Origin: a virus
Virus record (IMG/VR): IMGVR_UViG_3300005613_000025
Location: 27,723-91,722 of that record
Strand: one strand, 5' to 3'
Length of the DNA stretch: 64,000 nt
The position numbers were made by a program, and so were the translations under genes. Below the pieces are notes generated by a model. That model had not been told where the DNA came from. It worked only from the letters and a program-made list of their open reading frames with translations, and made no database searches. This document shows, in pieces, positions 531 through 63,061 of the stretch (position 1 is its first letter; every line of letters starts with the position of its first letter).

Positions 531-2110
531 TGAAGAATTATCAAGAATTCATAAAAGAAGCAGAACTTTCAAAGACAGAGGGTGTACCAGAGGATTGGAT
601 AAGAAAGACCGATGTGAAGGCGCAAAGAGAACTTGGTGTTAGAAAGGATGAGCCGACAGGGCGAGTGCCACACGGTCTACGACCACCACCTGGAATGCCA
701 CCACTACCTCCTGGAACGGAATTGCCTGGACCTCAAACAATGGCTCTTGTTCAGAAAATGAATAGAATGATGCAAAATGTCATGCCCATTTTCAGAAAAT
801 ATGATAAAGATGAGGTTTACCCGAAAATGACTGAAATTGCAATTGAAGCAGTAAAATCTGAATTTCCAAATGTATTGGATAATGTTACACTTGATGTCAA
901 AATGGTTGATATGTTCAAAGTTGCAGAGGAGATGCCAGATATCAAGGAGACTCCAAAGGATCCAAAATCTGAGGAGGAACAAAAAGAAAAAATAGAATCA
1001 GAGGAAGAATCTGAAAATGATGAGGGTTCTGATAATGATTCGAATGAAACCCCAATAGATGATTTTTTAAGATCACCTGAATTGAAAAAAGAGATCGACA
1101 AGGTAAAGTTGATGAATGCCATTTCACAGGGTGAAGGTTTGAACACTAAAATGATATTGCATAGTGATGTTGTAAAGGATGGTTTGAAAGAAATATTCGG
1201 TGATGATTGGCAGATCGTTTTCAATACATATGATGAGATGTCGAAGATACATCTTCAAATGAACTGGTCTCAGTCAATAGATTTCACTGCTAAGAACATG
1301 TCAGATAACTCAGAAGGAATTGCAGGAACAGTTCAAGTTGGTTGGGATGATAATAATGAAGAGGATGGTGATGAACAGACACAAAGTGCAGAGGATATAC
1401 TCAAATCAATTGAGCAAGGTGAATCTTTAAGTGATATGAGTGATGAGATAAGTGACCAACTTGAAGGTGGTAGAGGTAAAATAACCGTAAGAGCGGTTGA
1501 TCTTGCCATGTTGATACATGAAATTGTCAAGGGCATCTATCAATTGGTTGTTGTGAGTGGTATGCAAGTAATGAAAGATGAGAGAACTAAGATGGCTGCC
1601 AAGATGGCAACCGATAGTTTTGCCGATGAGGCAGAAGAGTTCCGATATGGTCCTTACATAGCTGCCGCATTGAGGGATGTTGTGAATAAATGTGACGGAT
1701 CAGATAAATATCCGAATGCAAGACTTTATGTTTTCGGGTTGATGGTTCAGATGGATGCACAGCCATTCTTGGATCTGATGCTTGAAATACTAAAGGAAAG
1801 TGATAGTGCAACTGAGATGGTGCAATCCCTTGTTGATCAGGTCAATGAGATGTTTGATGAATATCAACAAAAAGAAGTTGAATACGATCTTGATAGTGAC
1901 GGGGATGATGATCAGATGATTCCTTCACAATCGGATGAGAAAGAGTATAAGGATATGTCACAATCAGAATTGAAAGAGTTGATCGATATGTATCTTGATT
2001 CGGGAGACTTCGGCGAGATCGAGAAAATAAGACCTTACTTGAAAGAGTCGATCGACATGAGAATATATTTTGAAAGACAAGTGCAAAAAATAAAGGAATC
2101 AAAAAAATGA
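530..2110 (+). CDS. Acidic 526-aa probable internal head protein
   Basis: N-terminus MKNYQEFIKE resembles the T4 internal-protein capsid-targeting sequence MKTYQEFIAE. Confidence 0.6.
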   Translation: MKNYQEFIKEAELSKTEGVPEDWIRKTDVKAQRELGVRKDEPTGRVPHGLRPPPGMPPLPPGTELPGPQTMALVQKMNRMMQNVMPIFRKYDKDEVYPKMTEIAIEAVKSEFPNVLDNVTLDVKMVDMFKVAEEMPDIKETPKDPKSEEEQKEKIESEEESENDEGSDNDSNETPIDDFLRSPELKKEIDKVKLMNAISQGEGLNTKMILHSDVVKDGLKEIFGDDWQIVFNTYDEMSKIHLQMNWSQSIDFTAKNMSDNSEGIAGTVQVGWDDNNEEDGDEQTQSAEDILKSIEQGESLSDMSDEISDQLEGGRGKITVRAVDLAMLIHEIVKGIYQLVVVSGMQVMKDERTKMAAKMATDSFADEAEEFRYGPYIAAALRDVVNKCDGSDKYPNARLYVFGLMVQMDAQPFLDLMLEILKESDSATEMVQSLVDQVNEMFDEYQQKEVEYDLDSDGDDDQMIPSQSDEKEYKDMSQSELKELIDMYLDSGDFGEIEKIRPYLKESIDMRIYFERQVQKIKESKK

Positions 2111-4104
2111 AGTTATTCAGATTCAATAATTTTAAGAGTGAAAAATTGATAAATGAGAATGTTGCTCAGGCAAAGAAATTGGCCAAAGATACATATCAAC
2201 TTAACAAGGCTATTGTAAGTTTATCAGATGGTAAGTATAAGACCGATAAAGAAGGTCTTGTGATACTCGATACTGATGGATATCCTGTCGAGCCAAAGGA
2301 TATGGACCAAGAGATAGTTCAAAAAGCGAAAGATTCTGTTTCAGAGATAGAGGTCACTGAGGAAGAACTAAAAGCAGCTGAGAGGTCATCTGCCATGGGT
2401 GTCATTCGTGATATAGTTGGTAAAAAACAAGGATACACATATATGTTCCTTTATTTCAAGTTGGTTGAACAGGTTCCTGATGATATGCTCAAAACAATAA
2501 TGTCAAGGTTGAAACAGAATGGTGATCTTTTGAATCGACTGAGAAGGAATATTTCAAATTACATTGATCCTGAGGTGAAAAACAATTCTGAGCAATTGGT
2601 TGATGATCTTGATGATATTGAAAGATATAGAAAGGCAAAGAAGTTCATCAATGAGTTCACATCAGTGCTCAAAGAAGATTACGCACAAGCGCCACCATAT
2701 TTGAAGGATAAACTTGTTGATGTTGCATCAGCATTTGATGAACTTGGAAAAGATGATTCTGGTAAAATAGATAAGGTAGCGCAAAAAGCATCACAGAAAA
2801 TATTCTTCGATAAGATAAAGCGATATAACACAGTGAGAGAGATGTTGGTTGCTGCTGAGGCTCATCTAAAAGCTGAGGCAAATTCAGGATACACTAAATA
2901 TCTGAAATCAATAAAAGAAGTGAATCGTAAATTCGGAAAATTCGGTGCGGATGCTTTATTTGTTGAAAATGGAATTCTTGTGATGGAGCTCAAATCCTAC
3001 CAGGCAACCAAGAAACTGTGTGGTAACACTGCTTGGTGTATTAAGGATCTATACTATTGGAACAATTATGTTGGTGGAGATACTGTTTATAACAGACAAT
3101 ATGTTATTGTGAATTTCAATTTACCCACATCTGATAGGAAGAGTATGATAGGTGTCACAATAGGACCTAATCAGTCAATATATGCTGCACACTATAAGAA
3201 TGACAATGAGGCCAAACCGTATCTGAAACAAGATCTCAAAGAATTCGAAGATGAGTATGGTCTGCCAGAAGGATCATTGTGGTATTACTTACAACCAATG
3301 GATGAAAACGATATCGAAATGAAAAAGAGAAGGATCAGTGCAAATAGAAATGTCGTGAAAAAAGGAATATCGCTTGACCAATTGAAACAATATGTTGTTG
3401 AAGATGGTGCTGATGTGAATGCTGAAAACGGAGCTCCACTGGACAATGCAGTTGAGGAAGATGATTATGACAAAGTGGAATTTTTGTTGAACAGTGAGGC
3501 AAGTCCGAATTTGAGGACTGAGTTTTCAGCAACTGTGAACAAAGTGAAATCGTTCAAAATATTGAAACTTATGTTGAACAATGGTGCAGAGTTGACGAAA
3601 CACGCATTCAGGCCGATGATGGATGACCGTGATGCTATCAAGTTCTGTCTTGAGAATGGAATGGATCCTGACCTTGGTAAAGGACTTCCTATCCGACAGG
3701 CCATCAAGCGAGGTGATTTGGATCTCATCAAGGTGTTCATTGAGAATGGTGCTACTTGGGGTATGGATGACGGAAGAGCTCAGCGAACAGCATTCGAAAA
3801 AGACCAGATCGGAGTTGCAGAATATCTTGTCGAGAACGGATTCAATAAGCGATTTGATATTGTGATGGATTGGATCGGCATGATAAAATCAATGCACTCT
3901 CCTGACAAAAGATACGAACTTCTTAGTATCTGTCAGGACTGGATAGACCGTAAAAGAGTTGAAATGCAACAAAGTGGATACCGTGACAAGGATTCTGATG
4001 GAAAAACCATTGTCATTGACTATGATCGACTTGTTGAAAAGTATGGAAATTACATGAATTATGTCATAAGTAATGATCCATCTATGTCGAAATTTAAAAA
4101 ATGA
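2107..4104 (+). CDS. Ankyrin-repeat-containing protein
   Basis: C-terminal GADVNAENGAPLDNAV and GLPIRQAIKRGDLDLIKVFIENGA repeats. Confidence 0.75.
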   Translation: MKLFRFNNFKSEKLINENVAQAKKLAKDTYQLNKAIVSLSDGKYKTDKEGLVILDTDGYPVEPKDMDQEIVQKAKDSVSEIEVTEEELKAAERSSAMGVIRDIVGKKQGYTYMFLYFKLVEQVPDDMLKTIMSRLKQNGDLLNRLRRNISNYIDPEVKNNSEQLVDDLDDIERYRKAKKFINEFTSVLKEDYAQAPPYLKDKLVDVASAFDELGKDDSGKIDKVAQKASQKIFFDKIKRYNTVREMLVAAEAHLKAEANSGYTKYLKSIKEVNRKFGKFGADALFVENGILVMELKSYQATKKLCGNTAWCIKDLYYWNNYVGGDTVYNRQYVIVNFNLPTSDRKSMIGVTIGPNQSIYAAHYKNDNEAKPYLKQDLKEFEDEYGLPEGSLWYYLQPMDENDIEMKKRRISANRNVVKKGISLDQLKQYVVEDGADVNAENGAPLDNAVEEDDYDKVEFLLNSEASPNLRTEFSATVNKVKSFKILKLMLNNGAELTKHAFRPMMDDRDAIKFCLENGMDPDLGKGLPIRQAIKRGDLDLIKVFIENGATWGMDDGRAQRTAFEKDQIGVAEYLVENGFNKRFDIVMDWIGMIKSMHSPDKRYELLSICQDWIDRKRVEMQQSGYRDKDSDGKTIVIDYDRLVEKYGNYMNYVISNDPSMSKFKK

Positions 4105-27657: not shown

Positions 27658-28053
27658 ATGAAAATATATTTAGATTTTGATGGAACTGTTGTTGAACACA
27701 TGTATCCTGAAATTGGAAAAATAAATCCAGGATCTTTGGATGTAATACAAAAATTACACGATGCTGGTCACGAAATAATAATAAACACGATGCGTGCTGA
27801 TATGAGAAACGGTACACTACAACAGGCACTGTACTTCCTCAACTCAATACCTTACTGTAATATCAAGTTTGAAAAGTTCTGTGCATCAAAAGTTGATCCT
27901 GATGAATGGGTAACCCCAAATAAAGAAATGGAAAAGATATACATTGATGACATTGCACACGGAATCCCACTCAGAGACGGATTCCATGTAGGTTCAAAAA
28001 TGGTTGATTGGCAAGAACTGAATAGACAATTTACAGATAATAATATTTATTGA
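27658..28053 (+). CDS. HAD-superfamily hydrolase
   Basis: YLDFDGTVV, IYIDD. Confidence 0.85.
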   Translation: MKIYLDFDGTVVEHMYPEIGKINPGSLDVIQKLHDAGHEIIINTMRADMRNGTLQQALYFLNSIPYCNIKFEKFCASKVDPDEWVTPNKEMEKIYIDDIAHGIPLRDGFHVGSKMVDWQELNRQFTDNNIY

Positions 28054-28538
28054 TGAAGAAGGAATTAAGAAAACTCAAATTATTTGAACTTGGTATAGGA
28101 GAATGGCCATATACTACCTCCTACGAATCGATGAAAGATGTGGTTGATCGAAATCTTGATGGGTGTGTTATCAAGACAAGTGATGATTGCCCAGATTCTT
28201 ATGTTTTCATTCAAGGGGGAAAGTATATTATGGAGCAGGATAAAAAAAATGACGCTTTATGGGTCAGATGGGATGGTCTTTGGTCCATTTTTTCAAATGA
28301 CTTTTCTTTGGAACATAGTGACATTCAAGCAATTATAAAGTTCCTGGTGGAACAACATCTCAAATCAAAGGTAGGAACACCAAAATACGACTATCCGAAT
28401 TCAACATCTGAGGTGGAACAACATCTCAAATCAAAGGTAGGAACACCTGGTCTTCATATCAATTACACCATTGAAGGGGTGGAAAAACATCTCAAATCAA
28501 AGGTAGGAACACCCCAGGAATCTACTTGGTACAACTGA
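28050..28538 (+). CDS. Array-associated small protein A (C-terminus reads through the repeats)
   Basis: Paralog of 37339..37725; VEQHLKSKVGTP repeats at a 22-aa period. Confidence 0.75.
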   Translation: MMKKELRKLKLFELGIGEWPYTTSYESMKDVVDRNLDGCVIKTSDDCPDSYVFIQGGKYIMEQDKKNDALWVRWDGLWSIFSNDFSLEHSDIQAIIKFLVEQHLKSKVGTPKYDYPNSTSEVEQHLKSKVGTPGLHINYTIEGVEKHLKSKVGTPQESTWYN

Positions 28539-28579
28539 ACACCGGTGGAACAACATCTCAAATCAAAGGTAGGAACATC
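28346..28579. CRISPR. CRISPR-like mini-array 1: four 36-bp repeats, three 30-bp spacers, no cas gene in the window
   Basis: GGTGGAACAACATCTCAAATCAAAGGTAGGAACACC at 28346, 28412, 28478 (one mismatch) and 28544 (one mismatch); spacers unique. Confidence 0.75.
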
Positions 28580-36856: not shown

Positions 36857-37342
36857 ATGAAAATGACATCAAAACAACTATTGGATAGACACGATGAGAT
36901 AAAGGACCGTATCTCAAAAAAGTATGGATTTTTTCTTTATTTTCTTTTACAGAACATTTTCAACATCTCGAAACTTGAAGAACTTGTCGAGTCAAAAGGA
37001 TTCAGTGTGAAAAGAAAAAAAGTTGGATATGATATATTATCTGAAATATATGATGGTGAGAAACATATCGGTCTTATACAATCAACTGCCGGTTGGCCAA
37101 CCATTGAACTTTTAAAGTTCAAAGGAAACAAAAAAATTGCAAGATCACTTGCCGAGTCTGATATTATCATAGAACCGGTTGAAGGATATCATAGGATCCT
37201 TGATTGGCACGATGTGTGTGGTAAATTACATATATTGGCCGGTGGTCAGATAATACTGAATTCTCTGCCCCATGAACTTAAAGATCAACATGTTTCAAAA
37301 TTCATAAATGATAATAATTTAACATCTTTAATAGGGAAATGA
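36857..37342 (+). CDS. Hypothetical protein
   Basis: ORF behind TATATTTG, translationally coupled to 37339. Confidence 0.6.
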   Translation: MKMTSKQLLDRHDEIKDRISKKYGFFLYFLLQNIFNISKLEELVESKGFSVKRKKVGYDILSEIYDGEKHIGLIQSTAGWPTIELLKFKGNKKIARSLAESDIIIEPVEGYHRILDWHDVCGKLHILAGGQIILNSLPHELKDQHVSKFINDNNLTSLIGK

Positions 37343-37725
37343 AACAACAACTCAGAAAACTAAAGCTTTATGAATTGGGTATTGCTGAATGGCCTTATGC
37401 GACCTCCTATGAAGAGATGAAAGAAGTGGTCGAGCGTAACTTGGAAGGATGTGTTATCAAGACATCCGATGAGTATCCAGGTTCTTATTTTTTCACGCAA
37501 GGAAAAAAGGTTATCATGGAACAAAATCAAAAAAATGATGTTCTATGGGTGAGGTATGATGGGTTTTGGTCCATTTTTTCAAACGACTTTTCCTTGGAAA
37601 GGACTGACATTCAAGCAATTATAAAGTTCCTGGTGGAACAACACCTCAAATCAAAGATAGGAACACCGGCTAGCACCTTCACTCATTTCAGTAAGCGGTG
37701 GAACAACACCTCAAATCAAAGATAG
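37339..37725 (+). CDS. Array-associated small protein B
   Basis: Paralog of 28050..28538, clearly similar up to VEQHLKSKIGTP. Confidence 0.75.
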   Translation: MKQQLRKLKLYELGIAEWPYATSYEEMKEVVERNLEGCVIKTSDEYPGSYFFTQGKKVIMEQNQKNDVLWVRYDGFWSIFSNDFSLERTDIQAIIKFLVEQHLKSKIGTPASTFTHFSKRWNNTSNQR

Positions 37726-37856
37726 GAACACCCCGCATTCATCTCGTTGGCGAAGTAGTTGTGGTGGAACAACACCTCAAATCAAAGATAGGAACACCAT
37801 GGCTTAGGTCACAAAGAGTTAACGGGCAGGTGGAACAACATCTCAGATAAAGGTAA
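37632..37856. CRISPR. CRISPR-like mini-array 2: three full repeats plus one degenerate; spacers 29/30/30 bp
   Basis: GGTGGAACAACACCTCAAATCAAAGATAGGAACACC at 37632, 37697 and 37763; degenerate copy from 37829. Confidence 0.75.
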
Positions 37857-37867
37857 TATAAGGATTC

Positions 37868-38227
37868 TTATCCTCTCGGAATCTTCATATCAGATACAAT
37901 ATCAACTTTGAAAGCAAATCCACTATCGTCCTGTGAATAACTTGTGTTTGAATCATAATCACCACCGAATGTTGCAGGTCTTGGTGCATTCATTTTTCTG
38001 ATCTTTTCCTGTCTTTCTCTTTCAATTCGTTGATCTTCCAACCTACAAAGTTCCGCGTATGACATATCACCTTTCGGATCATTCGGTGCATGTTGTGTCT
38101 GTGTGTATGTATCTGATTGTGGTTTATAACCATACTTCCTTAATAGTTGTTCTTTCTCCCACTCCTGTATATCAGCAGGTCTTACTTCATCAGTTTGTTG
38201 GTCAATAATTCTAACTTGCGCTCTCAT
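37868..38227 (-). CDS. Hypothetical protein
   Basis: ORF with TAATATATA just upstream. Confidence 0.6.
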   Translation of the reverse strand: MRAQVRIIDQQTDEVRPADIQEWEKEQLLRKYGYKPQSDTYTQTQHAPNDPKGDMSYAELCRLEDQRIERERQEKIRKMNAPRPATFGGDYDSNTSYSQDDSGFAFKVDIVSDMKIPRG

Positions 38228-47326: not shown

Positions 47327-48841
47327 ATGTCTATGTTAATAGACACAGAATACTTAAGCCGCTCACAGAAACTGGTATGTTCATATATTGACTCTGCCGG
47401 TGAGATCAAATTGAAATACTTTGATTTCACAACACCTATGAAATATGTGACATGTGATGATACAGACCCACAGAAACACCCAACATACAGATCTTGGGAT
47501 GATAAGGCAGTGAAGCAGGTCATGACAAATAGACCTGATAGATACGCCATATATGAATTCTTGGATCAACAGGATGAAAAAACAAAAGATGAGATATTCG
47601 GATTTCACACACCGAACATATATTTTGTCGATATCGAGACCGAGATAGATCCTGCAACTGGTGCATACTCACAACCTGATGATCCGAATGGTAGGATCAT
47701 ATCTGTTTCGGTTGTTTATGATGAAAAGATAATTCTGATGGGATTGAAAGATATGCCAGATGACATGCAAAAAAGAATTGAAAAGAATACGAATGAATAT
47801 TTCAATGATGGTGTTGAATATAAGCTCAAATATGTCAAATTCCAAGATGAATTTGATATGTTGTGGACCTTCTTCAACAAAATGACCGTAAAGATGCCAC
47901 TCATCACTGGTTGGAACTTCCTCAACTTCGACTGGAGATATCTTGTGAACAGAGCAAGAAAGCTCACAAAGACGGTCAATAATCAAACAATGATAATTGA
48001 TCCTAAGATAAGTTCACATACAAGAAGACTCAGAACATTGTTCGGAACAGATTATGAGGTTCCTATGCATAGGATGGTATTTGATTACATGCAACTTTAT
48101 GAAGTTGCAGATACATCTATCAAAGTGAAAGAATCATCCTCACTTGACTTTGTTTCTTCGAAATTGGTCGGTGTTGAAAAGATCAAATATAATGGGTCAC
48201 TTCAAAAATTATATGAAGATGATTTTGAAACTTTCATGTATTATAACGCAGTTGACTCGGCATTGGTTCAAAAGATACACCAATCAAAGAATTACATATC
48301 GATCATATTTGCAATTTCATCATTGTCACAGATAAAAGTAACAGATGTTGTATCTCAGATGAACAATGCACTTGCATCACTTGCCATCACCGAAGGTGTT
48401 CTCAGAGGCAGATTCAGAGAAATGCAGAATGTGGTTCTTTTCAAAGATGAGAATTTCTCATCACAATCTGCGAAAGGAATTGCAGGTGGATATGTGATGG
48501 ATCCAGTTCAAGGTATGAACCTTTGGGTTGCCTGTTATGACTTTGCAAGTCTTTATCCCACGACCATGGATCAATTCTTCATTGCACCTGAAACATTCGT
48601 TGGTGTTCAGGGAGAAGATAAAGCATATTGTTTCAACGGTAATAAGAGAACAAAGATAGATAAGACGATACATGTGGTCTGCAACAATGGATGTGTTTTC
48701 AAAAAAGAACTTACTCCAACTCTTAAGATGATCAAAGATGTTTATGCCGACAGAAAAAAGAACAAAAAGATAATGATGCAGAAAAAAGAAGAACTTAACA
48801 AAGTTCTTCACGAAATCCAAAAATTGGAAGCCACTATTTGA
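47327..48841 (+). CDS. Family-B DNA polymerase, N-terminal part (3'-5' exonuclease plus motif A)
   Basis: DIET, GWNFLNFD, YNAVD, GGYV, YDFASLYP; ends in the fingers region without motifs B and C. Confidence 0.88.
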   Translation: MSMLIDTEYLSRSQKLVCSYIDSAGEIKLKYFDFTTPMKYVTCDDTDPQKHPTYRSWDDKAVKQVMTNRPDRYAIYEFLDQQDEKTKDEIFGFHTPNIYFVDIETEIDPATGAYSQPDDPNGRIISVSVVYDEKIILMGLKDMPDDMQKRIEKNTNEYFNDGVEYKLKYVKFQDEFDMLWTFFNKMTVKMPLITGWNFLNFDWRYLVNRARKLTKTVNNQTMIIDPKISSHTRRLRTLFGTDYEVPMHRMVFDYMQLYEVADTSIKVKESSSLDFVSSKLVGVEKIKYNGSLQKLYEDDFETFMYYNAVDSALVQKIHQSKNYISIIFAISSLSQIKVTDVVSQMNNALASLAITEGVLRGRFREMQNVVLFKDENFSSQSAKGIAGGYVMDPVQGMNLWVACYDFASLYPTTMDQFFIAPETFVGVQGEDKAYCFNGNKRTKIDKTIHVVCNNGCVFKKELTPTLKMIKDVYADRKKNKKIMMQKKEELNKVLHEIQKLEATI

Positions 48842-52551: not shown

Positions 52552-54201
52552 ATGATACTTGATGAAGCGGTTGATATATCTACTAAGAATAATAAAAAGT
52601 TGAAACATTACAAGAATCTCGGATATGATGTTTCAATGGATATTATTTGTGTGAATGTAGAAGATCTACCACGATCGATTTCGATATCTGTAAAGGTCAA
52701 GTGTGATTATTGTGATAAAGTTCATGATAGAAAATTAGTTGACTATAACAGAATAGTTGATAAAAGTGGAAGTGGTAAATATGCATGTTCTCGTAAATGC
52801 GGTGTTTTAAAATTCAAAGAAACAATTGCTGATATTGAAAAGAAACCACATGTGAACAAGGGTAAGAAAATACCACCTGAAAAGCTTGATAAGATAAATG
52901 AAAAACGAAAAAAAACAAATTTAAAAAAGTATGGCACTGAGCATGTATTACAAAATGAAAGTGTCAAAGAAAAGTTTAAAAGAACAAATATCGATAGGTA
53001 TGGTGTTGATAATTATTCAAAAACTCAAGAATTTTTAGAAAAACAACAACAGACCTGTATAGAGAAATATAATGAAAAACACATATCACAAATAGAAAGT
53101 GTCAAAGAGAAAATAAAGAAAACCAATCTCAGTAGATATGGTGTGACGACTACATTACAAACTAAAGAATCGATCGAAAGTAGAAACAGAAAATTCAGAG
53201 ATGAAGAATTCAGAAAGAACTTTGATATAAGTAATGATGAAAATTATATCAAGTATATCGGTGATTCTGTATCATTATTTCTTTGTGATATGAACAAAGG
53301 ACATGAATTTGAGATAAAATATGATAATTATCGAAGTAGAAAGAAGTTCAATATACCGTTATGCACGACATGTTACCCTATTTCAGAGCTCATATCAATA
53401 AAAGAAAGGCAACTAAGTGAATTCATATCAAGTATATATGACGGAGAGATAATATCAAATTATAGGGATAAATTTGAAATAGATATATTTTTACCTGATA
53501 TGAATTTAGGATTTGAGTTCAATGGTTTATATTGGCATTCTGACTCATATAGGCCAAAATCATATCATTTAGATAAGAAAAATCATTTTTTAGACAGAGG
53601 TATTACGATATTCAATATTTGGGAGGATGATTGGACCTATAATAATGAAATTATTCGATCACAGATACAGAATTTACTTAAAAAAAGCAAAAGAATATTT
53701 GCAAGGAAATGTCATGTTCGAAAAATAGACATAAACATCTCAAAAAAATTCTTGAACGAGAATCATATACAAGGATTCAACAGATCGAAAATAAAAGTTG
53801 GTCTTTTCTTTAATAATGAGTTAGTTTCAATTATGACATTTGATAAGTTCGAAGGAAGAAAGAAAATGAAGGATGGTGAGTGGAACTTATCTAGATTCTG
53901 TAACAAGTTAGGTGTTTCTGTTGTAGGTGGTGCATCCAAATTACTGAATTTTTTCATCAATGAATTCGAACCCAAAAGGATCATTTCATATGCTGATAAG
54001 GATTGGTCGAGTGGAAATCTTTATGAAAAGCTTGGATTTGAGAAGGTATATGAAACCAAACCTGACTATAAGTATCTTGTAGGTGATAAAAGAAAACATA
54101 AATCAAATTTTAAAAATTCTTTGACAGGCACAAAAGAGTCACTACTTGATATACCAAAAGTATATGATTGTGGTAAAATGAAATTCGAACTTATCATTTG
54201 A
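52552..54201 (+). CDS. Homing-endonuclease-like protein (Vsr/PD-(D/E)xK-type core with KYG repeats)
   Basis: TNLKKYG repeats, EIDIF..FEFNGLYWHS, IWEDDW, LSRFC. Confidence 0.75.
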   Translation: MILDEAVDISTKNNKKLKHYKNLGYDVSMDIICVNVEDLPRSISISVKVKCDYCDKVHDRKLVDYNRIVDKSGSGKYACSRKCGVLKFKETIADIEKKPHVNKGKKIPPEKLDKINEKRKKTNLKKYGTEHVLQNESVKEKFKRTNIDRYGVDNYSKTQEFLEKQQQTCIEKYNEKHISQIESVKEKIKKTNLSRYGVTTTLQTKESIESRNRKFRDEEFRKNFDISNDENYIKYIGDSVSLFLCDMNKGHEFEIKYDNYRSRKKFNIPLCTTCYPISELISIKERQLSEFISSIYDGEIISNYRDKFEIDIFLPDMNLGFEFNGLYWHSDSYRPKSYHLDKKNHFLDRGITIFNIWEDDWTYNNEIIRSQIQNLLKKSKRIFARKCHVRKIDINISKKFLNENHIQGFNRSKIKVGLFFNNELVSIMTFDKFEGRKKMKDGEWNLSRFCNKLGVSVVGGASKLLNFFINEFEPKRIISYADKDWSSGNLYEKLGFEKVYETKPDYKYLVGDKRKHKSNFKNSLTGTKESLLDIPKVYDCGKMKFELII

Positions 54202-59022: not shown

Positions 59023-59097
59023 TGGAGCAAAATGTGGGATTCGAACCCCGTCCCCGCATTGGAAGTGCGGTGCTTTGCCAGTTAAGCTACATCTTGC
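59023..59097 (-). tRNA. tRNA-Gly(UCC), encoded CCA
   Basis: CCGCA-CTTCCAA-TGCGG; U73 discriminator; 8-9 bp acceptor with a short T-stem. Confidence 0.9.
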
Positions 59098-59107
59098 TTA
59101 TTATCAG

Positions 59108-59188
59108 TAGGCGAGGTGGGATTTGAACCCACGTTTCCAACGTACCACTACGAATATCCAAGGTATAAGCTTGGCTCGGTACTCGCCC
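59108..59188 (-). tRNA. Non-canonical D-armless tRNA-Ile(UAU)-like RNA
   Basis: GGGCGAG/CTCGCCT acceptor, CCAAG-CTTATAC-CTTGG arm, GTGGG-TTCAAAT-CCCAC T-arm; only 7 nt where the D-arm should be. Confidence 0.7.
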
Positions 59189-59190
59189 AT

Positions 59191-59224
59191 AAAAAAACCC
59201 AGTCAAACTAAGTCTGACTGGGTT
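59191..59224 (-). terminator. Intrinsic terminator/attenuator immediately upstream of the Ile-Gly-Ala tRNAs
   Basis: AACCCAGTCAGAC-TTA-GTTTGACTGGGTT plus T-run on the minus strand. Confidence 0.85.
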
Positions 59225-59251
59225 ACATTAATTCTTTAACTTTGAATTACT

Positions 59252-59323
59252 TTACATAACACAGCCATTGACTGACGCTCCCGCGCCGCCTCCGATTATC
59301 GCTATGTTAGTTATTGTTTTCAT
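59252..59323 (-). CDS. Leader peptide MKTITNIAIIGGGAGASVNGCVM (Ile/Gly/Ala-sensing)
   Basis: Read manually; 3 ATA, 2 GGA and 3 GCG codons; lies between promoter motifs and the terminator. Confidence 0.8.
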   Translation of the reverse strand: MKTITNIAIIGGGAGASVNGCVM

Positions 59324-59398
59324 TGTTAATTATATTATCTATATATTAAAAAGTTTTTCTCTCTTTTTTCTTTCTTTTACAAAAGTAAGGATTATTTT

Positions 59399-59653
59399 TT
59401 AAACTGCCAATTTTAGTTTTGTGATCAATTCATTTTTCATTTTTTCAATATCACTTTCATTCTCAATTTCTACATATGAACATCGTCTTGATACTTTAAA
59501 GGCTGATACTTTTACTTTATCGTCTTCCAAAGAAACATAAACTGAGTTTCCTTTTTTATTTTGAAATCCAATGTAAACTGGATTTAAACCAGGTGTGTTT
59601 TGAAATCCAAGATTAATAACTTCGAGTACTGTAAGTGCAAATAGATTTTTCAT
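59399..59653 (-). CDS. Hypothetical protein
   Basis: ORF behind TATATTTG at 59670-59677. Confidence 0.6.
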   Translation of the reverse strand: MKNLFALTVLEVINLGFQNTPGLNPVYIGFQNKKGNSVYVSLEDDKVKVSAFKVSRRCSYVEIENESDIEKMKNELITKLKLAV

Positions 59654-59784
59654 GTTTGTTTTATTTCAACAAATATAAGGATAACTTTTCAATTAACCAA
59701 TTATTTCCGAGGAACCATCTATTCTGATAAACAAGGTCGTTTATTTCTATTGTAACTATTTACATTTCTTTAATTGTTTTTGTT

Positions 59785-60096
59785 TTATGGTCTTCCGCTA
59801 TGATTTGTGTGAAAATCGTTCTTTTCATATTTGAATTCTAGCCAACTTCCTTCTCTTTGATCATGTTTCATTTCAACAGAAGTCCACCCAGCTTGTAGAT
59901 AACTATCTCTGATGAAATTAAAGTGAGAGCCATTCATACCACTTAAACCACTCAAACCACTCAAAGAAATAACACAATGAATTCCATTAGATCTGTATAT
60001 TCCTTTTTTGGTTCTGATTATCCTATCAATAACCTCTTCATATTTCTTAGCCTCTTCTCTAAGTTCTTCATTTAATTCTTCGGGTCTTACTGCCAT
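59785..60096 (-). CDS. Hypothetical protein
   Basis: ORF behind TATATTTG at 60112-60119. Confidence 0.65.
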   Translation of the reverse strand: MAVRPEELNEELREEAKKYEEVIDRIIRTKKGIYRSNGIHCVISLSGLSGLSGMNGSHFNFIRDSYLQAGWTSVEMKHDQREGSWLEFKYEKNDFHTNHSGRP

Positions 60097-60122
60097 TTTC
60101 TCTAATTTTTACAAATATAATC

Positions 60123-60326
60123 TTATTTAATTATTAACCAAAAAATAAAAGTTAAAATAGTATAGGATATGAATCCAGTTATCACTTTTGATATCCTACT
60201 GTCATTTTTGGAAGTGTTTATCCTTTCACCAAATGGCGTAAATATTTTATCATTATCTAATCCAAATGATAGAAAATATGATAACACCAAACCAACAATT
60301 GTCCATATAATAAATCCAATTAACAT
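60123..60326 (-). CDS. Small two-TM membrane protein
   Basis: Two hydrophobic helices. Confidence 0.6.
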   Translation of the reverse strand: MLIGFIIWTIVGLVLSYFLSFGLDNDKIFTPFGERINTSKNDSRISKVITGFISYTILTFIFWLIIK

Positions 60327-60338
60327 TTTTCTAAATTT

Positions 60339-61076
60339 TTAACATTGATAACTTTTTCTTAATTCATTTGAAACAATCTCAAAATATCTTGATCTCAATA
60401 ATTTCAAATAAGTTTCATTATCCATTCCATAGTTTCCAATAGCCCACATGTCATTATATTCAATAACAACATTTTCACCACTTTCTAAAATACCTACATC
60501 AATTGTATATGCTGTTGGAAACTTATCTTCATTCTTATAAACAACCTCTAAAAGTTCGATTTCGTCCGGAAAAGTAAAAATATTACCGGAATAGTTTCGT
60601 ATGTCAATTACTTTATCTCGATAAATATAACACCTCCATTCAGATTCAATAGGTGAATAAAATGGTTTATATGCCATAACCTTTGTATCATCAGGTATAT
60701 TGGAAATCGAAGTATAAATAGATTCATCAATCACAAACCCTGTGAATAATTTGATATCAAATGGTTTGATAAATAGTTTTTCACCTGATTTGGATCTATC
60801 TTTGGCTTGTTTTAGAGTTATGGTTTCAAATTTTCTGTTTGAATTTTCCGGCAACCGAACATCACTCAATCCAATTCTTGAAAAGACCATGTTCATGAAC
60901 TCAACCGAACCAACAAATAGATTATTTCTTATTAGATTGTCAAATCTACCACTTTCAACTTCTTCAAATGTTACGAATTTATAACTTTGAGCAGTATCTA
61001 TTGCTCCATACATTGCACAAGCAACATCAAAATGATGTGGTAGTTTCTTATCTGAATCTGATTGTAAGTATATCAT
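60339..61076 (-). CDS. ATP-grasp domain protein (R2K/DUF4343-like)
   Basis: FIKP..KLFTG, EWRCYI, YTIDVG..VIEYND..GNYG. Confidence 0.85.
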   Translation of the reverse strand: MIYLQSDSDKKLPHHFDVACAMYGAIDTAQSYKFVTFEEVESGRFDNLIRNNLFVGSVEFMNMVFSRIGLSDVRLPENSNRKFETITLKQAKDRSKSGEKLFIKPFDIKLFTGFVIDESIYTSISNIPDDTKVMAYKPFYSPIESEWRCYIYRDKVIDIRNYSGNIFTFPDEIELLEVVYKNEDKFPTAYTIDVGILESGENVVIEYNDMWAIGNYGMDNETYLKLLRSRYFEIVSNELRKSYQC

Positions 61077-61288
61077 TATTGAACTCTATATCTTGTGCTA
61101 GGGTAAACAGGTCTTATGTAAAAAGATATATTGCCGAACTTTTCTCTATACTTTTTCTTTACCTCTTCTATGAAGTCAGAACTATTACTACCAAATGGTC
61201 TTGGTTCTGACCAGAACTCCCAATCAAGTCCTAAAAATCTAACACCAATTATAATGTGGGTGAAACTTTGTTTCCAAATACTTTCCAT
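61076..61288 (-). CDS. Hypothetical protein
   Basis: Operon-packed ORF. Confidence 0.5.
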   Translation of the reverse strand: MESIWKQSFTHIIIGVRFLGLDWEFWSEPRPFGSNSSDFIEEVKKKYREKFGNISFYIRPVYPSTRYRVQ

Positions 61289-61296
61289 TTTTTTTT

Positions 61297-61587
61297 TCAG
61301 TTTAAAATCTTATTTAATTTATTTGATCTATCATATTTCGGATGAATCTGATTCAGATGTTTTTCCATTGCCACAAAGTCAATATCTCCAGTGATGAAAT
61401 ATTCTTTATGAATGTCAATTGCAATTTTCAAAACTCCAATTTTGAAAAGAGTATCTTTATCAGGATAAGTTCCTGGATATTCTTCCTCTTCTTTTACCTG
61501 TCCATAAAGGTCAGATATAAGCAATTTATTTGAATTTCCATACAAATTCATAAGTATATCCCGTGCTCCTTTTAACTTCTTTTTCAT
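61297..61587 (-). CDS. Hypothetical protein
   Basis: C-terminal RSNKLNKILN. Confidence 0.6.
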   Translation of the reverse strand: MKKKLKGARDILMNLYGNSNKLLISDLYGQVKEEEEYPGTYPDKDTLFKIGVLKIAIDIHKEYFITGDIDFVAMEKHLNQIHPKYDRSNKLNKILN

Positions 61588-61829
61588 TTTAATATACTTT
61601 TAAGTTTCAGCTCTCTTAATTTATCTTTATCAATCGTAATATCGTCCTCATCAATAAATTCACCACAAAATATACCTGTATGATATTCAACAATAAGGTA
61701 TTTACCCATATCTTTTACATGATGTATCAAAGCTTTTTCTCCAAACTTTTCACGAATATATGGACCTAAGATAGGATCCAAAGATTTCCTGAATTCAGAT
61801 TCTTTCTTTATTGATTTTATAAAATCCAT
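61584..61829 (-). CDS. Hypothetical protein
   Basis: C-terminal RELKLKSILK. Confidence 0.6.
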   Translation of the reverse strand: MDFIKSIKKESEFRKSLDPILGPYIREKFGEKALIHHVKDMGKYLIVEYHTGIFCGEFIDEDDITIDKDKLRELKLKSILK

Positions 61830-61832
61830 TTT

Positions 61833-62087
61833 TTAATATTTAAAATATTGAAATAAATCAACAGCCTCATTCTCGGTATATTCAGTGTTGAATAAAATAT
61901 GATCGATGAATTTATTGTCTGTTTCTTTGGCGAAATATGTAGGATATTTATCTTCTAACTGTGTGTAAAAATACATTGACTCTCTTAGAGAGATTTTATT
62001 GCTGAACAGTTTGTCTAAAATATCAACAATTTCTTTGTCAGCCATAACTGAACCAGTCTCCCAAAACTCTTCTTTGTAATTTATCAT
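61833..62087 (-). CDS. Hypothetical protein
   Basis: ORF behind TATCTTTG. Confidence 0.55.
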   Translation of the reverse strand: MINYKEEFWETGSVMADKEIVDILDKLFSNKISLRESMYFYTQLEDKYPTYFAKETDNKFIDHILFNTEYTENEAVDLFQYFKY

Positions 62088-62160
62088 CTTGACAAAGATA
62101 AGGAAAAATTATTAAATATTAGTTTTTTAGTATATATAAACTTTACAAAATGACTTTTTG

Positions 62161-62236
62161 TACTCGGTATGGGTGACGATCCCATCTTTTTCCCGTGAAA
62201 GGGGAATGTCCTCAAACCAACATAGACGAACCGAGC
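62161..62236 (-). tRNA. tRNA-Glu(UUC), atypical T-loop
   Basis: TTCCC-CTTTCAC-GGGAA; T-arm ATGGG-ATCGTCA-CCCAT. Confidence 0.85.
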
Positions 62237-62244
62237 ATATTAGG

Positions 62245-62326
62245 TTGGTAGGGAGGGATTCGAACCCCCGAACTCAGAGAGAGATGTTTTACAGACATCC
62301 TGCTTTAGCCACTTGCATACCTACCA
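62245..62326 (-). tRNA. tRNA-Tyr(GUA)
   Basis: GATGT-CTGTAAA-ACATC, variable arm, TTCGAAT T-loop. Confidence 0.9.
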
Positions 62327-62334
62327 ATATTTTG

Positions 62335-62408
62335 TAGTCCGTACGGGATTCGAACCCGTGATCTTTTGGTTGAAAACCAAACGTGTTAGGCCACTACACT
62401 AACGGACC
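62335..62408 (-). tRNA. tRNA-Glu(UUC)
   Basis: GGTCCGT/ACGGACT acceptor; TTTGG-TTTTCAA-CCAAA. Confidence 0.88.
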
Positions 62409-62416
62409 ATTTTCAG

Positions 62417-62510
62417 TGGGAAACGAAGGAATTGAACCTCTAAACTCCATACCAGTCACTATTTTGTTAACGGAGAAGGGTTTTACAGACCCTTTGTGAC
62501 AACGCTTCCC
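62417..62510 (-). tRNA. Non-canonical D-armless tRNA-Tyr(GUA)-like RNA
   Basis: GGGAAGCG/CGTTTCCC acceptor, AAGGGT-CTGTAAA-ACCCTT arm, GAGG-TTCAATT-CCTT T-arm, ~35-nt variable region. Confidence 0.7.
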
Positions 62511-62517
62511 ATATTTT

Positions 62518-62718
62518 TCAAATTTCAATCCAACGAATCAAAAGTTTTGCATCCATTTCTGGTAGAAAATCTGCTTCACCCATATCATCTGTTGGTATTA
62601 CAAAATTGACATCACCTAAGCTTGTCTCAGTTTTGTAATAAGCAGAACCCATTCGGATCATTTGAAAATTTGCGATTGGTTTCTCTTTATAAAGTACTTT
62701 TTTTATTTCATTTTTCAT
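62518..62718 (-). CDS. Hypothetical protein inside the attenuated tRNA operon
   Basis: 66-aa ORF between the terminator and the tRNAs. Confidence 0.7.
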   Translation of the reverse strand: MKNEIKKVLYKEKPIANFQMIRMGSAYYKTETSLGDVNFVIPTDDMGEADFLPEMDAKLLIRWIEI

Positions 62719-62744
62719 TTTATTTTTATTAATTTTTTAACAAC

Positions 62745-62777
62745 AAAAAAACCCATCAACTTTTTAGTTGATGGGTT
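62745..62777 (-). terminator. Intrinsic terminator/attenuator upstream of the Tyr-Glu tRNA operon
   Basis: AACCCATCAACT-AAAA-AGTTGATGGGTT plus T-run on the minus strand. Confidence 0.88.
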
Positions 62778-62801
62778 CTCAGTTACTTTATGTTTTTATA
62801 C

Positions 62802-62900
62802 TTAACTAAAGCACATAGTCTCATCAACTACAAGGTTTCCCTCATATTCATACTCATAAGCCTCATAAGACAATACTGATATGTTGTTGATGTTAGACAT
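62802..62900 (-). CDS. Leader peptide MSNINNISVLSYEAYEYEYEGNLVVDETMCFS (Tyr/Glu-sensing)
   Basis: Read manually; TAT GAG GCT TAT GAG TAT GAA TAT GAG run followed by a segment complementary to the terminator. Confidence 0.85.
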   Translation of the reverse strand: MSNINNISVLSYEAYEYEYEGNLVVDETMCFS

Positions 62901-62936
62901 TTTACTTTTTATTTTCTTTTGTTTTTAATTCTTTTA

Positions 62937-62968
62937 CAAATATAAGGTAGATTTTTTAATCTACCAAA
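62937..62968 (-). promoter_or_regulatory. Bacteroidota-type housekeeping promoter (-33 TTTG, 20-nt spacer, -7 TATATTTG)
   Basis: TTTG-GTAGATTAAAAAATCTACCT-TATATTTG upstream of the leader peptide. Confidence 0.75.
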
Positions 62969-62985
62969 TTTATTTTATTTTTTTG

Positions 62986-63061
62986 TAGCGGGGACAGGAT
63001 TCGAACCTGTGACCTCCGGGTTATGAGCCCGGCTAGCTGACCTGACTGCTAACACCCCGCA
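62986..63061 (-). tRNA. Initiator tRNA-fMet(CAU)
   Basis: CCGGG-CTCATAA-CCCGG with three G-C pairs; unpaired position 1:72. Confidence 0.9.

What the first reader, a model, noticed from the sequence alone, without database searches (positions are those of the whole stretch)
37339..37856. Paralogous gene-plus-array module 9 kb away with its own repeat variant and new spacers (locus 2)
Seen: same protein family and the same junction (AAGTTCCT then repeat 1). The three full repeats share two substitutions relative to locus 1, all spacers differ, and the last repeat is degenerate. Spacer 1 is 29 bp and breaks the reading frame, so the downstream units are not held in frame. Homogeneity within each array and a degenerate distal repeat suggest polarised, repeat-duplicating growth from the gene-proximal end, with the coding sequence acting as leader (inference). 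Caveat: both repeat substitutions are protein-neutral (His synonymous, Val to Ile), so the first repeat may be under dual constraint.
Basis: partly seen in the sequence, partly recalled or inferred. Interest (0 to 1): 0.8.

Follow-up and report, generated by a model that had tools for sequence, protein, structure and literature searches.

The report
Phage gene ending in CRISPR-like array
A small conserved gene of a huge phage ends in a short CRISPR-type array that grows at the gene end and is read in the gene's reading frame; hundreds of related phage genes do the same, with no cas genes found.

Summary
At 37339-37856 a ~98-codon gene runs into three identical 36-bp repeats and a decayed fourth, separated by unique 29/30/30-bp spacers. 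Repeat 1 is the gene's last 12 codons. Locus 1 (28053-28579) is a paralogue.

Polarised growth from the gene end is supported. Three strain pairs with identical genes differ only by units next to the gene and share the distal spacers. The decayed distal repeat keeps the ancestral bases. The last ~90 nt of the gene are conserved at synonymous sites, like a leader. Spacers are unrelated to each other and richer in G+C than the phage.

New here:
- The module belongs to a large unannotated family (779 protein clusters) and reaches nine gene copies in one phage.
- The 66-nt period is kept across the family, while the repeat changes with each gene's own 3' end.
- Stop codons are depleted in the gene's frame only, so the arrays are translated.

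No cas gene, host array, known repeat family or spacer target was found. The phage is a fragment of a ~0.6-Mb relative of the Mahaphage clade.

Best reading: a CRISPR-type array that uses a gene as leader. A rival reading, that the insertions diversify the protein's tail, stays open. The first-stage scan also noted locus 1 of this genome.

The parts
36857..37342 (+). Upstream ORF (161 aa, no family hit). Its stop overlaps the start of the module gene, so the module has no promoter region of its own.
37339..37667 (+). Module gene of locus 2 (109 codons to the end of repeat 1). The ORF formally runs to 37725 because of read-through into spacer 1 and repeat 2.
   Evidence: ORF. dN/dS 0.12-0.34 with dS about 1 against its paralogue and orthologues. 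AlphaFold2 model pLDDT 94.
37549..37631 (+). Leader-like 3' part of the gene, conserved at synonymous sites across five copies from three phages.
   Evidence: Fisher P = 2e-4
37632..37667 (+). Repeat 1, which is codons 98-109 of the gene (VEQHLKSKIGTP).
37668..37696 (+). Spacer 1 (29 nt, shifts the frame).
37697..37732 (+). Repeat 2, identical to repeat 1.
37733..37762 (+). Spacer 2 (30 nt).
37763..37798 (+). Repeat 3, identical to repeat 1.
37799..37828 (+). Spacer 3 (30 nt).
37829..37856 (+). Decayed terminal repeat. It keeps the ancestral bases T13 and G26.
37868..38227 (-). Convergent ORF (119 aa, no family hit) that bounds the array.
28053..28381 (+). Paralogous module gene of locus 1 (78% amino-acid identity).
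28346..28579 (+). Locus 1 array: four repeats and three 30-nt spacers. It is in frame until a TGA in spacer 3.

Best explanation
Locus 2 is one copy of a phage 'gene-plus-array' module. A conserved small gene (about 98 codons, unknown fold) ends in 12 codons that also form the first 36-bp repeat of a CRISPR-type array.

Shown here: new units enter next to the gene. Each is a unique ~30-bp segment plus a fresh copy of the gene's terminal 36 bp. Older units are pushed distally and decay. The gene's last ~110 nt therefore serve as leader plus first repeat, and the protein keeps its C-terminus after every insertion. The only enzyme known to make this pattern is a Cas1-Cas2-type integrase (established knowledge; the enzyme itself is inferred, not found).

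Also shown: the module has no promoter region of its own and starts on the stop codon of the upstream gene. Ribosomes read from the gene into the array until the first stop or frameshift, and selection keeps spacers open in that frame.

Inferred: the transcript yields spacer-repeat guide RNAs for Cas proteins encoded elsewhere. These could lie in the unsampled ~85% of this ~0.6-Mb genome or in the host, which is likely Bacteroidota judging from relatives. Translation through the array would keep the long non-genic RNA coupled to ribosomes, protecting it and the downstream genes from premature termination.
For: Array anatomy and its excess over chance.

Turnover next to the gene: three strain pairs with identical genes and shared distal spacers. 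Under random deletions, all three being proximal has a chance of about 1/24.

Orthologous loci carry wholly different spacers: L018 vs L008, whose flanks are 90-97% identical.

A gradient of ancestral or decayed distal repeats.

Nucleotide-level constraint: the 36-bp repeat differs at 0-3 positions between copies whose gene bodies have dS about 1. Leader-like conservation at synonymous sites upstream.

Spacers look inserted rather than diverged. They are all unique, with pairwise similarity equal to shuffled controls. Their G+C is 43.5% against 32.8% for the phage, and 35% against 24.7% in the G002 phage (0 of 20000 resamples in each case).

The 66-nt period is kept across the family: 66 of 70 proteins with a second in-frame copy have it at 22 aa. 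Yet repeat sequences differ and match each gene's own 3' end.

Translation: frame-specific depletion of stops, in-frame length variants of 27, 33 and 36 nt, and start/stop overlap with the upstream gene.

Context: the major capsid protein is 61% identical to 635-642-kb uncultured phage genomes. Compact arrays without cas1/2/4 are documented in huge phages, and genomes of that size class are predicted to infect Bacteroidetes (PMC7162821).
Against: - No Cas1 or Cas2 signature in the 92-kb and 108-kb phage records, and no Cas1 in the MAG holding the nine-copy phage.
- The large unassigned ORFs hit no defence or NCBIfam model.
- No array with this repeat in one genome for each of 185,579 species, using a pattern that allows six variable positions. 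All four metagenome stretches that matched the repeat pattern carry arrays of this kind; the gene was seen next to the array wherever its upstream DNA was read.
- No Rfam family matched the locus 2 region.
- No anti-repeat above background.
- No spacer target in GenBank phages, in IMG/VR (three spacers tried), in the phage's own fragments or in four related complete huge phages.
- The repeat sequence follows the protein's C-terminus across a family with ~30% identity. This is hard to reconcile with mimicry of host repeats.
- Stop depletion, and codon-position composition in the G002 spacers, fit a function of the encoded peptide equally well.
Confidence: 0.45

Rival explanations
1. The protein is the product. 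The same insertion process diversifies the C-terminal tail of a multi-copy phage protein family. Each unit adds a constant 12-residue helix-and-turn motif plus about 10 hypervariable residues, giving a repertoire of variable tails. Conceivable roles include binding or decoy functions, or peptide precursors. The nucleic-acid pattern would be only the mechanism of diversification.
For: - Frame-0 stop depletion in both lineages: 22 of 22 and 20 of 24 spacers open, with the other frames at chance.
- Spacer lengths of 27, 33 and 36 nt, and low G at third codon positions (0.10), in G002 spacers.
- ORFs that end just after the last decayed repeat: the L047-L053 phage, identical in seven samples, with repeats diverging by amino-acid changes.
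- Single ORFs of 346-760 aa that fuse 3-5 modules (P0017, P0018, P0020).
- Repeat 1 encodes the end of the last helix of a confidently modelled domain.
- No Cas partner or target was found.
Against: - 5 of 24 spacers in the window lineage break the frame, including the newest spacer of locus 2 and of L015_B. Perfect repeats nevertheless persist downstream of the break.
- The number of in-frame copies falls off roughly geometrically: 79, 51, 17, 3, 1.
- Window-lineage spacers show no codon-position bias, and their Cys/Trp content looks like random sequence.
- Synonymous sites of the repeat and of the upstream ~90 nt are constrained, which a peptide function does not explain.
- No maturation enzyme or conserved partner gene flanks the modules, and their genomic contexts differ.
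Confidence: 0.3
2. Counter-defence decoy. The repeats imitate those of the host's CRISPR system, either to soak up Cas proteins (RNA anti-CRISPR style) or to divert the host's integrase away from the host array. Spacers would then be by-products.
For: - Repeat-mimicking RNAs and mini-arrays in phages are documented (PMC10651486).
- High copy number per genome (nine in G002).
- Spacer G+C is closer to a typical host than to the phage.
- No targets were found.
Against: - No host array with a similar repeat was found.
- The repeats follow the phage protein's sequence across the family rather than any known repeat class.
- The ordered turnover and the frame constraint are not expected for by-products.
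Confidence: 0.1
3. An ordinary tandem repeat made by duplication and divergence or by slippage, or a chance pattern.
For: The period is a multiple of three, and some arrays evolve like coding repeats.
Against: - The constant parts are about 100% identical, whereas the variable parts are at random-level similarity: maximum 17 matches against 18 in shuffles, mean 10.6 against 10.4.
- Variable parts have a fixed length of 30 nt.
- 0 of 100 shuffles give any match to the repeat.
- Strain differences are confined to the proximal end.
Confidence: 0.03

Closest known systems
Compact Cas-less CRISPR arrays of huge phages (Al-Shayeb et al. 2020, PMC7162821)
   Same: Huge phage related to the 635-735-kb genomes of that study (capsid protein 50-62% identical). 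Short arrays. No cas1, cas2 or cas4 nearby.
   Different: - There the arrays are treated as ordinary arrays, some with host-like repeats and identified targets.
- Here repeat 1 is the end of a conserved gene, and the arrays are translated.
- Modules are multi-copy, and the repeats match no host array or known repeat family.
- The four complete relatives searched lack this gene family.
Virus-borne mini-CRISPR arrays of Sulfolobales viruses (Medvedeva et al. 2019, PMC6858448)
   Same: Cas-less arrays in viral genomes. Same position in related viruses but different spacers, implying turnover.
   Different: - Those arrays sit in intergenic regions behind promoter-bearing leaders like the host's.
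- They carry 1-2 spacers, which target sister viruses.
- Here the leader is coding sequence without its own promoter, no host-like leader or repeat is known, and no targets were found.
36-bp-repeat / 30-bp-spacer arrays of Bacteroidota type II-C and VI-B systems (PMC8092290, PMC5006608)
   Same: The 36+30 geometry, short complementary repeat ends, and a likely Bacteroidota host. VI-B arrays lack their own cas1/cas2 and borrow adaptation in trans.
   Different: - Those repeats end in GTTG...CAAC; here the ends are GGTG...CACC, and other ends occur in other family members.
- Any resemblance to individual Cas13b repeats rests on my memory only and was not tested.
- No cas9 or cas13b gene was seen.
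RNA anti-CRISPRs / solitary repeat units (Camara-Wilpert et al. 2023, PMC10651486)
   Same: Phage-encoded CRISPR repeats without cas genes.
   Different: Those mimic host repeats and need no spacers. Here there are ordered, growing arrays fused to an ORF.

Membership tests
CRISPR array (generic) | Near-identical direct repeats of 23-47 bp separated by unique spacers of similar length | tested here: met
   36-bp repeats. Spacers are 29-31 bp (19 of 24 are 30) and all unique.
CRISPR array (generic) | Polarised spacer turnover at one end, with decayed repeats at the other | tested here: met
   Three strain pairs differ only at the gene-proximal end. Distal repeats are decayed or ancestral.
CRISPR array (generic) | Non-coding, AT-rich leader with a promoter next to the first repeat | tested here: not met
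   The sequence upstream of repeat 1 is a gene under purifying selection. The module start overlaps the upstream gene's stop, and no distinct promoter was found.
CRISPR array (generic) | cas genes in the same genome | tested here: inconclusive
   No Cas1 or Cas2 in the 92-kb and 108-kb records, and no Cas1 in G002. No defence-model hits for the large ORFs. The records are only 16-18% complete.
CRISPR array (generic) | Spacers match foreign protospacers | tested here: inconclusive
   No match in GenBank phages, in IMG/VR (three spacers), in the phage's own fragments or in four related huge phages. The composition is foreign.
CRISPR array (generic) | Repeat belongs to a described repeat family | tested here: not met
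   No Rfam family matched 37560-37900 at E up to 10, apart from a chance snoRNA hit.
Virus-borne mini-arrays that use host Cas | Repeat, and leader where present, similar to arrays of the host | tested here: inconclusive
   The degenerate repeat pattern found nothing in one genome per 185,579 species. In the metagenome collection it found only arrays of this kind. The host is unknown, and more diverged repeats were not searched.
Type II-C / VI-B style arrays of Bacteroidota | 36-bp repeats with GTTG...CAAC termini and ~30-bp spacers | tested here: inconclusive
   The geometry is met. The termini here are GGTG...CACC, against GTTG...(C)CAAC in PMC5006608 and PMC8092290. No effector was seen.
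Protein tandem repeat by duplication and divergence | Graded similarity between all parts of neighbouring units | tested here: not met
   Constant parts are about 100% identical, while the variable parts are indistinguishable from shuffled sequence.
Multi-core peptide precursor (RiPP-like) | Variable cores kept in frame between constant recognition motifs, with maturation enzymes nearby | tested here: inconclusive
   An in-frame bias is present, but 9 of 24 units in the window lineage break the frame. Neighbouring genes differ between loci, and the neighbours scanned here gave no maturation-enzyme hit.

The most novel reading that the evidence does not exclude
This would be a previously unrecognised, self-contained phage system. 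In it, CRISPR-style insertion (a new 30-bp segment plus duplication of a 36-bp site) acts on the 3' end of a protein-coding gene, and the product is translated. That would make it a cassette-insertion mechanism for diversifying protein tails. It would run either on an unknown integrase or on a borrowed Cas1-Cas2, and it is spread over hundreds of gene clusters and up to nine copies per genome.
Probability: 0.3. Interest if true: 0.95.

Novelty: new variant of a known kind. Interest (0 to 1): 0.85.

Why it matters
CRISPR arrays are thought of as non-coding loci behind non-coding leaders. Here a conserved gene supplies both the leader and the first repeat. The array is translated, and the arrangement is the rule in a large, unannotated family of phage genes rather than a one-off.

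Under the guide-RNA reading, this shows a new way for a virus to carry and express immune memory. It also raises the question of which integrase recognises a coding leader.

Under the rival reading, it would be the first case of CRISPR-type insertion used to diversify a protein.

Either way it gives concrete, testable material: clear strain polymorphisms, a confidently modelled small protein with no recognisable fold, and many paralogues.

Tried and rejected
- **Contig lookups.** DNA for most family members could therefore not be fetched, and the frame test rests on two lineages plus one further array (L047-L053).
- **Family assignment of the protein.** Pfam, PHROGs, PADLOC and NCBIfam gave no family. 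A profile search of PDB sequences and the ESM Atlas gave nothing.
- **Structure.** The 102-sequence model is good (pLDDT 94), but Foldseek found nothing better than E = 0.1 and VIA-align nothing above Z = 4.5. The weak MHC-like and homeodomain rows were treated as noise.
- **Nuclease idea.** I considered a PD-(D/E)xK nuclease reading of the YP(D)S and EQDxK motifs. I dropped it because the acidic residues are not invariant and no fold match supports it.
- **Back-translated motif scan.** It found nothing in IMG/VR and one true contig among eight hits in the genome collection.
- **Host and target searches.** All were negative: the repeat pattern in genomes, spacers in GenBank phages, IMG/VR and related huge phages, an anti-repeat scan, and 301 Cyclobacteriaceae genomes searched for the gene family.
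- **Literature.** No description of gene-embedded arrays turned up in the searches made.
- **RNA fold of the repeat.** It is not better than shuffled sequence, so no structural claim is made.

Full report
**1. What is there**

The window is part of a 91.7-kb IMG/VR virus record rated 16% complete, with ~32% G+C. It encodes a T4-type major capsid protein, family B DNA polymerase, ClpP-like protease and a ligase. The capsid protein is 61% identical to uncultured phage genomes of 635 and 642 kb, and 50% identical to ones of 636 and 735 kb. The paper that described phage genomes of this size reports that all five of its genomes above 634 kb fall in the Mahaphage clade and are predicted to infect Bacteroidetes (PMC7162821). 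I infer that the matched records are those genomes. The window is therefore a fragment of a ~0.6-Mb phage.

At 37339 an ORF starts on the stop codon of the upstream ORF. After 97 codons it runs into a 36-bp repeat (37632-37667). That repeat recurs identically at 37697 and 37763 and in decayed form at 37829. The spacers between are 29, 30 and 30 nt.

Locus 1 (28053-28579) has a paralogous gene (78% amino-acid identity), the same junction, four repeats and three 30-nt spacers. The 36-mer occurs seven times in the window and never in 100 shuffles.

**2. The gene is real and doubly constrained at its end**

Five copies from three phages give dN/dS of 0.12-0.34 with dS about 1 for the gene body. 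The 36-bp repeat, by contrast, differs at only 0-3 positions between the same copies. Third codon positions are invariant in 20 of the 30 codons before the repeat, against 18 of 70 further upstream (P = 2e-4). The last ~110 nt are therefore conserved as nucleic acid as well as protein, as a CRISPR leader-repeat junction would be.

With a 102-sequence alignment, AlphaFold2 gives a confident model (pLDDT 94.1). It has two helices, a four-stranded sheet and two more helices. The repeat-encoded residues close the last helix. No solved structure or sequence family matches.

**3. The array grows at the gene end**

- L008 and L016 are the same locus in close strains, with downstream flanks 99.9% identical. 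They share four spacers in order, and L008 has one extra unit directly after repeat 1.
- The L015_A array has five spacers. Protein P0003 has an identical 98-residue body followed only by the two distal ones.
- P0011 and P0013 differ in the same way by one unit.
- L018 is orthologous to L008 by its flanks but shares no spacer.
- Distal repeats are decayed everywhere. In locus 2 the decayed copy keeps the ancestral T13 and G26, while the three proximal copies share the derived bases. L018 and a G002 array show the same gradient.
- Spacers are no more similar to each other than shuffled sequences, so duplication with divergence is excluded.
- Spacers are compositionally foreign: 43.5% against 32.8% G+C here, and 35% against 24.7% in G002.

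This is the pattern made by insertion of a new segment with duplication of the first repeat. Cas1-Cas2 integration is the only known process that produces it.

**4. It is a large family**

Close homologues (69-100% identical) all end in the same motif followed by variable tails. A profile search of 1.84 billion representative proteins finds 779 clusters at E <= 1e-3. Members at ~30% identity end in their own 12-residue motif, about 10 variable residues, then the same motif again. Of 70 proteins with a second in-frame copy, 66 have it exactly 22 residues on.

One AT-rich phage, mis-binned in a 'Cellvibrionaceae' MAG (G002), has nine gene copies and eight arrays. Its repeat differs from the window's but is again the last 36 nt of each gene. 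The repeat therefore co-evolves with the gene's 3' end while the 36+30 geometry stays fixed.

The family was not found in:
- GenBank phages;
- the four complete relatives of 635-735 kb;
- 301 Cyclobacteriaceae genomes.

**5. The arrays are translated**

In G002, none of 244 spacer codons in the gene's frame is a stop, against 16 and 22 stops in the other two frames. Spacer lengths are 27, 29, 33 and 36 nt once each and 30 nt eighteen times. G is depleted at third codon positions.

In the window lineage, 20 of 24 spacers are open in the gene's frame, against 13.0 +/- 2.4 expected (P = 0.0018). The other frames are at chance.

A further phage, seen identically in seven samples, has four diverged repeats, all in frame, with the stop just after the last one. 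Some relatives fuse 3-5 modules in one ORF.

Against a strict coding requirement:
- 5 of 24 spacers are 29 or 31 nt, and locus 2 and L015_B are broken at their newest spacer;
- perfect repeats persist beyond such breaks;
- in-frame copy numbers fall off roughly geometrically.

**6. What was not found**

- No Cas1 or Cas2 in the phage records or the G002 MAG, and no defence-model hit for the large ORFs.
- No array with this repeat in one genome for each of 185,579 species.
- No Rfam family match and no anti-repeat.
- No protospacer.
- The records cover under a fifth of the genome, so absence of cas genes is not shown.

**7. Reading**

The growth mechanism is well supported. The output is not settled.

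I favour (0.45) a CRISPR-type array that uses a gene as leader and is expressed as the translated tail of that gene's mRNA, feeding guides to Cas proteins encoded elsewhere. Translation would serve to keep the transcript from premature termination. That step is inference.

The main rival (0.30) is that the peptide tail itself is the product, which would make this a new kind of protein diversification. A decoy role (0.10) and ordinary tandem duplication (0.03) are less likely.

Compared with known virus-borne arrays (PMC6858448, PMC7162821, PMC10651486), five features are new: the coding leader, the dual-use first repeat, the frame constraint, the multi-copy modular spread, and the lack of any host-like repeat.

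Noticed in passing
L015:1000-1873 (minus strand) and L017: Two complete gene-plus-array modules lie head to tail. After them comes the first ~30 nt of a third gene copy, broken by a stop. The modules therefore duplicate in tandem as units.
   Followed up: partly
G002 contigs C5 (L037-L041) and C10 (L042): Two contigs of a MAG labelled Cellvibrionaceae have 24.7-27% G+C and carry nine copies of the phage module. They are almost certainly phage DNA binned by mistake.
   Followed up: partly
L039:13483-13772 (G002 C5 53483-53772): A separate in-frame coding tandem repeat of ~66-69 nt (SSYSGD...DGK-type units). It is unrelated to the module and was picked up by the same period filter.
   Followed up: no
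window 59027-63058, minus strand: Five tRNA genes reach the Rfam gathering score, in two clusters.
   Followed up: no
window 47327-48841: A 504-aa ORF holds the family B polymerase exonuclease domain and only the first third of the polymerase domain. The polymerase therefore appears split or interrupted.
   Followed up: no
L025:5726-7759, window 52552-54201, L020:1679-3649: Several large proteins in both related phages carry one to three DUF7487 stretches. This is another expanded family of unknown function.
   Followed up: no
window 2107-4104: A 665-aa phage protein has ankyrin repeats near its C-terminus.
   Followed up: no
window 37626-37639 and 28340-28353: A perfect 5-bp inverted repeat (GTTCC-TGGT-GGAAC) straddles the gene/repeat-1 junction at both loci. 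The terminator scan reported it on the minus strand. It exists only at the first repeat, because its left arm is gene sequence.
   Followed up: no
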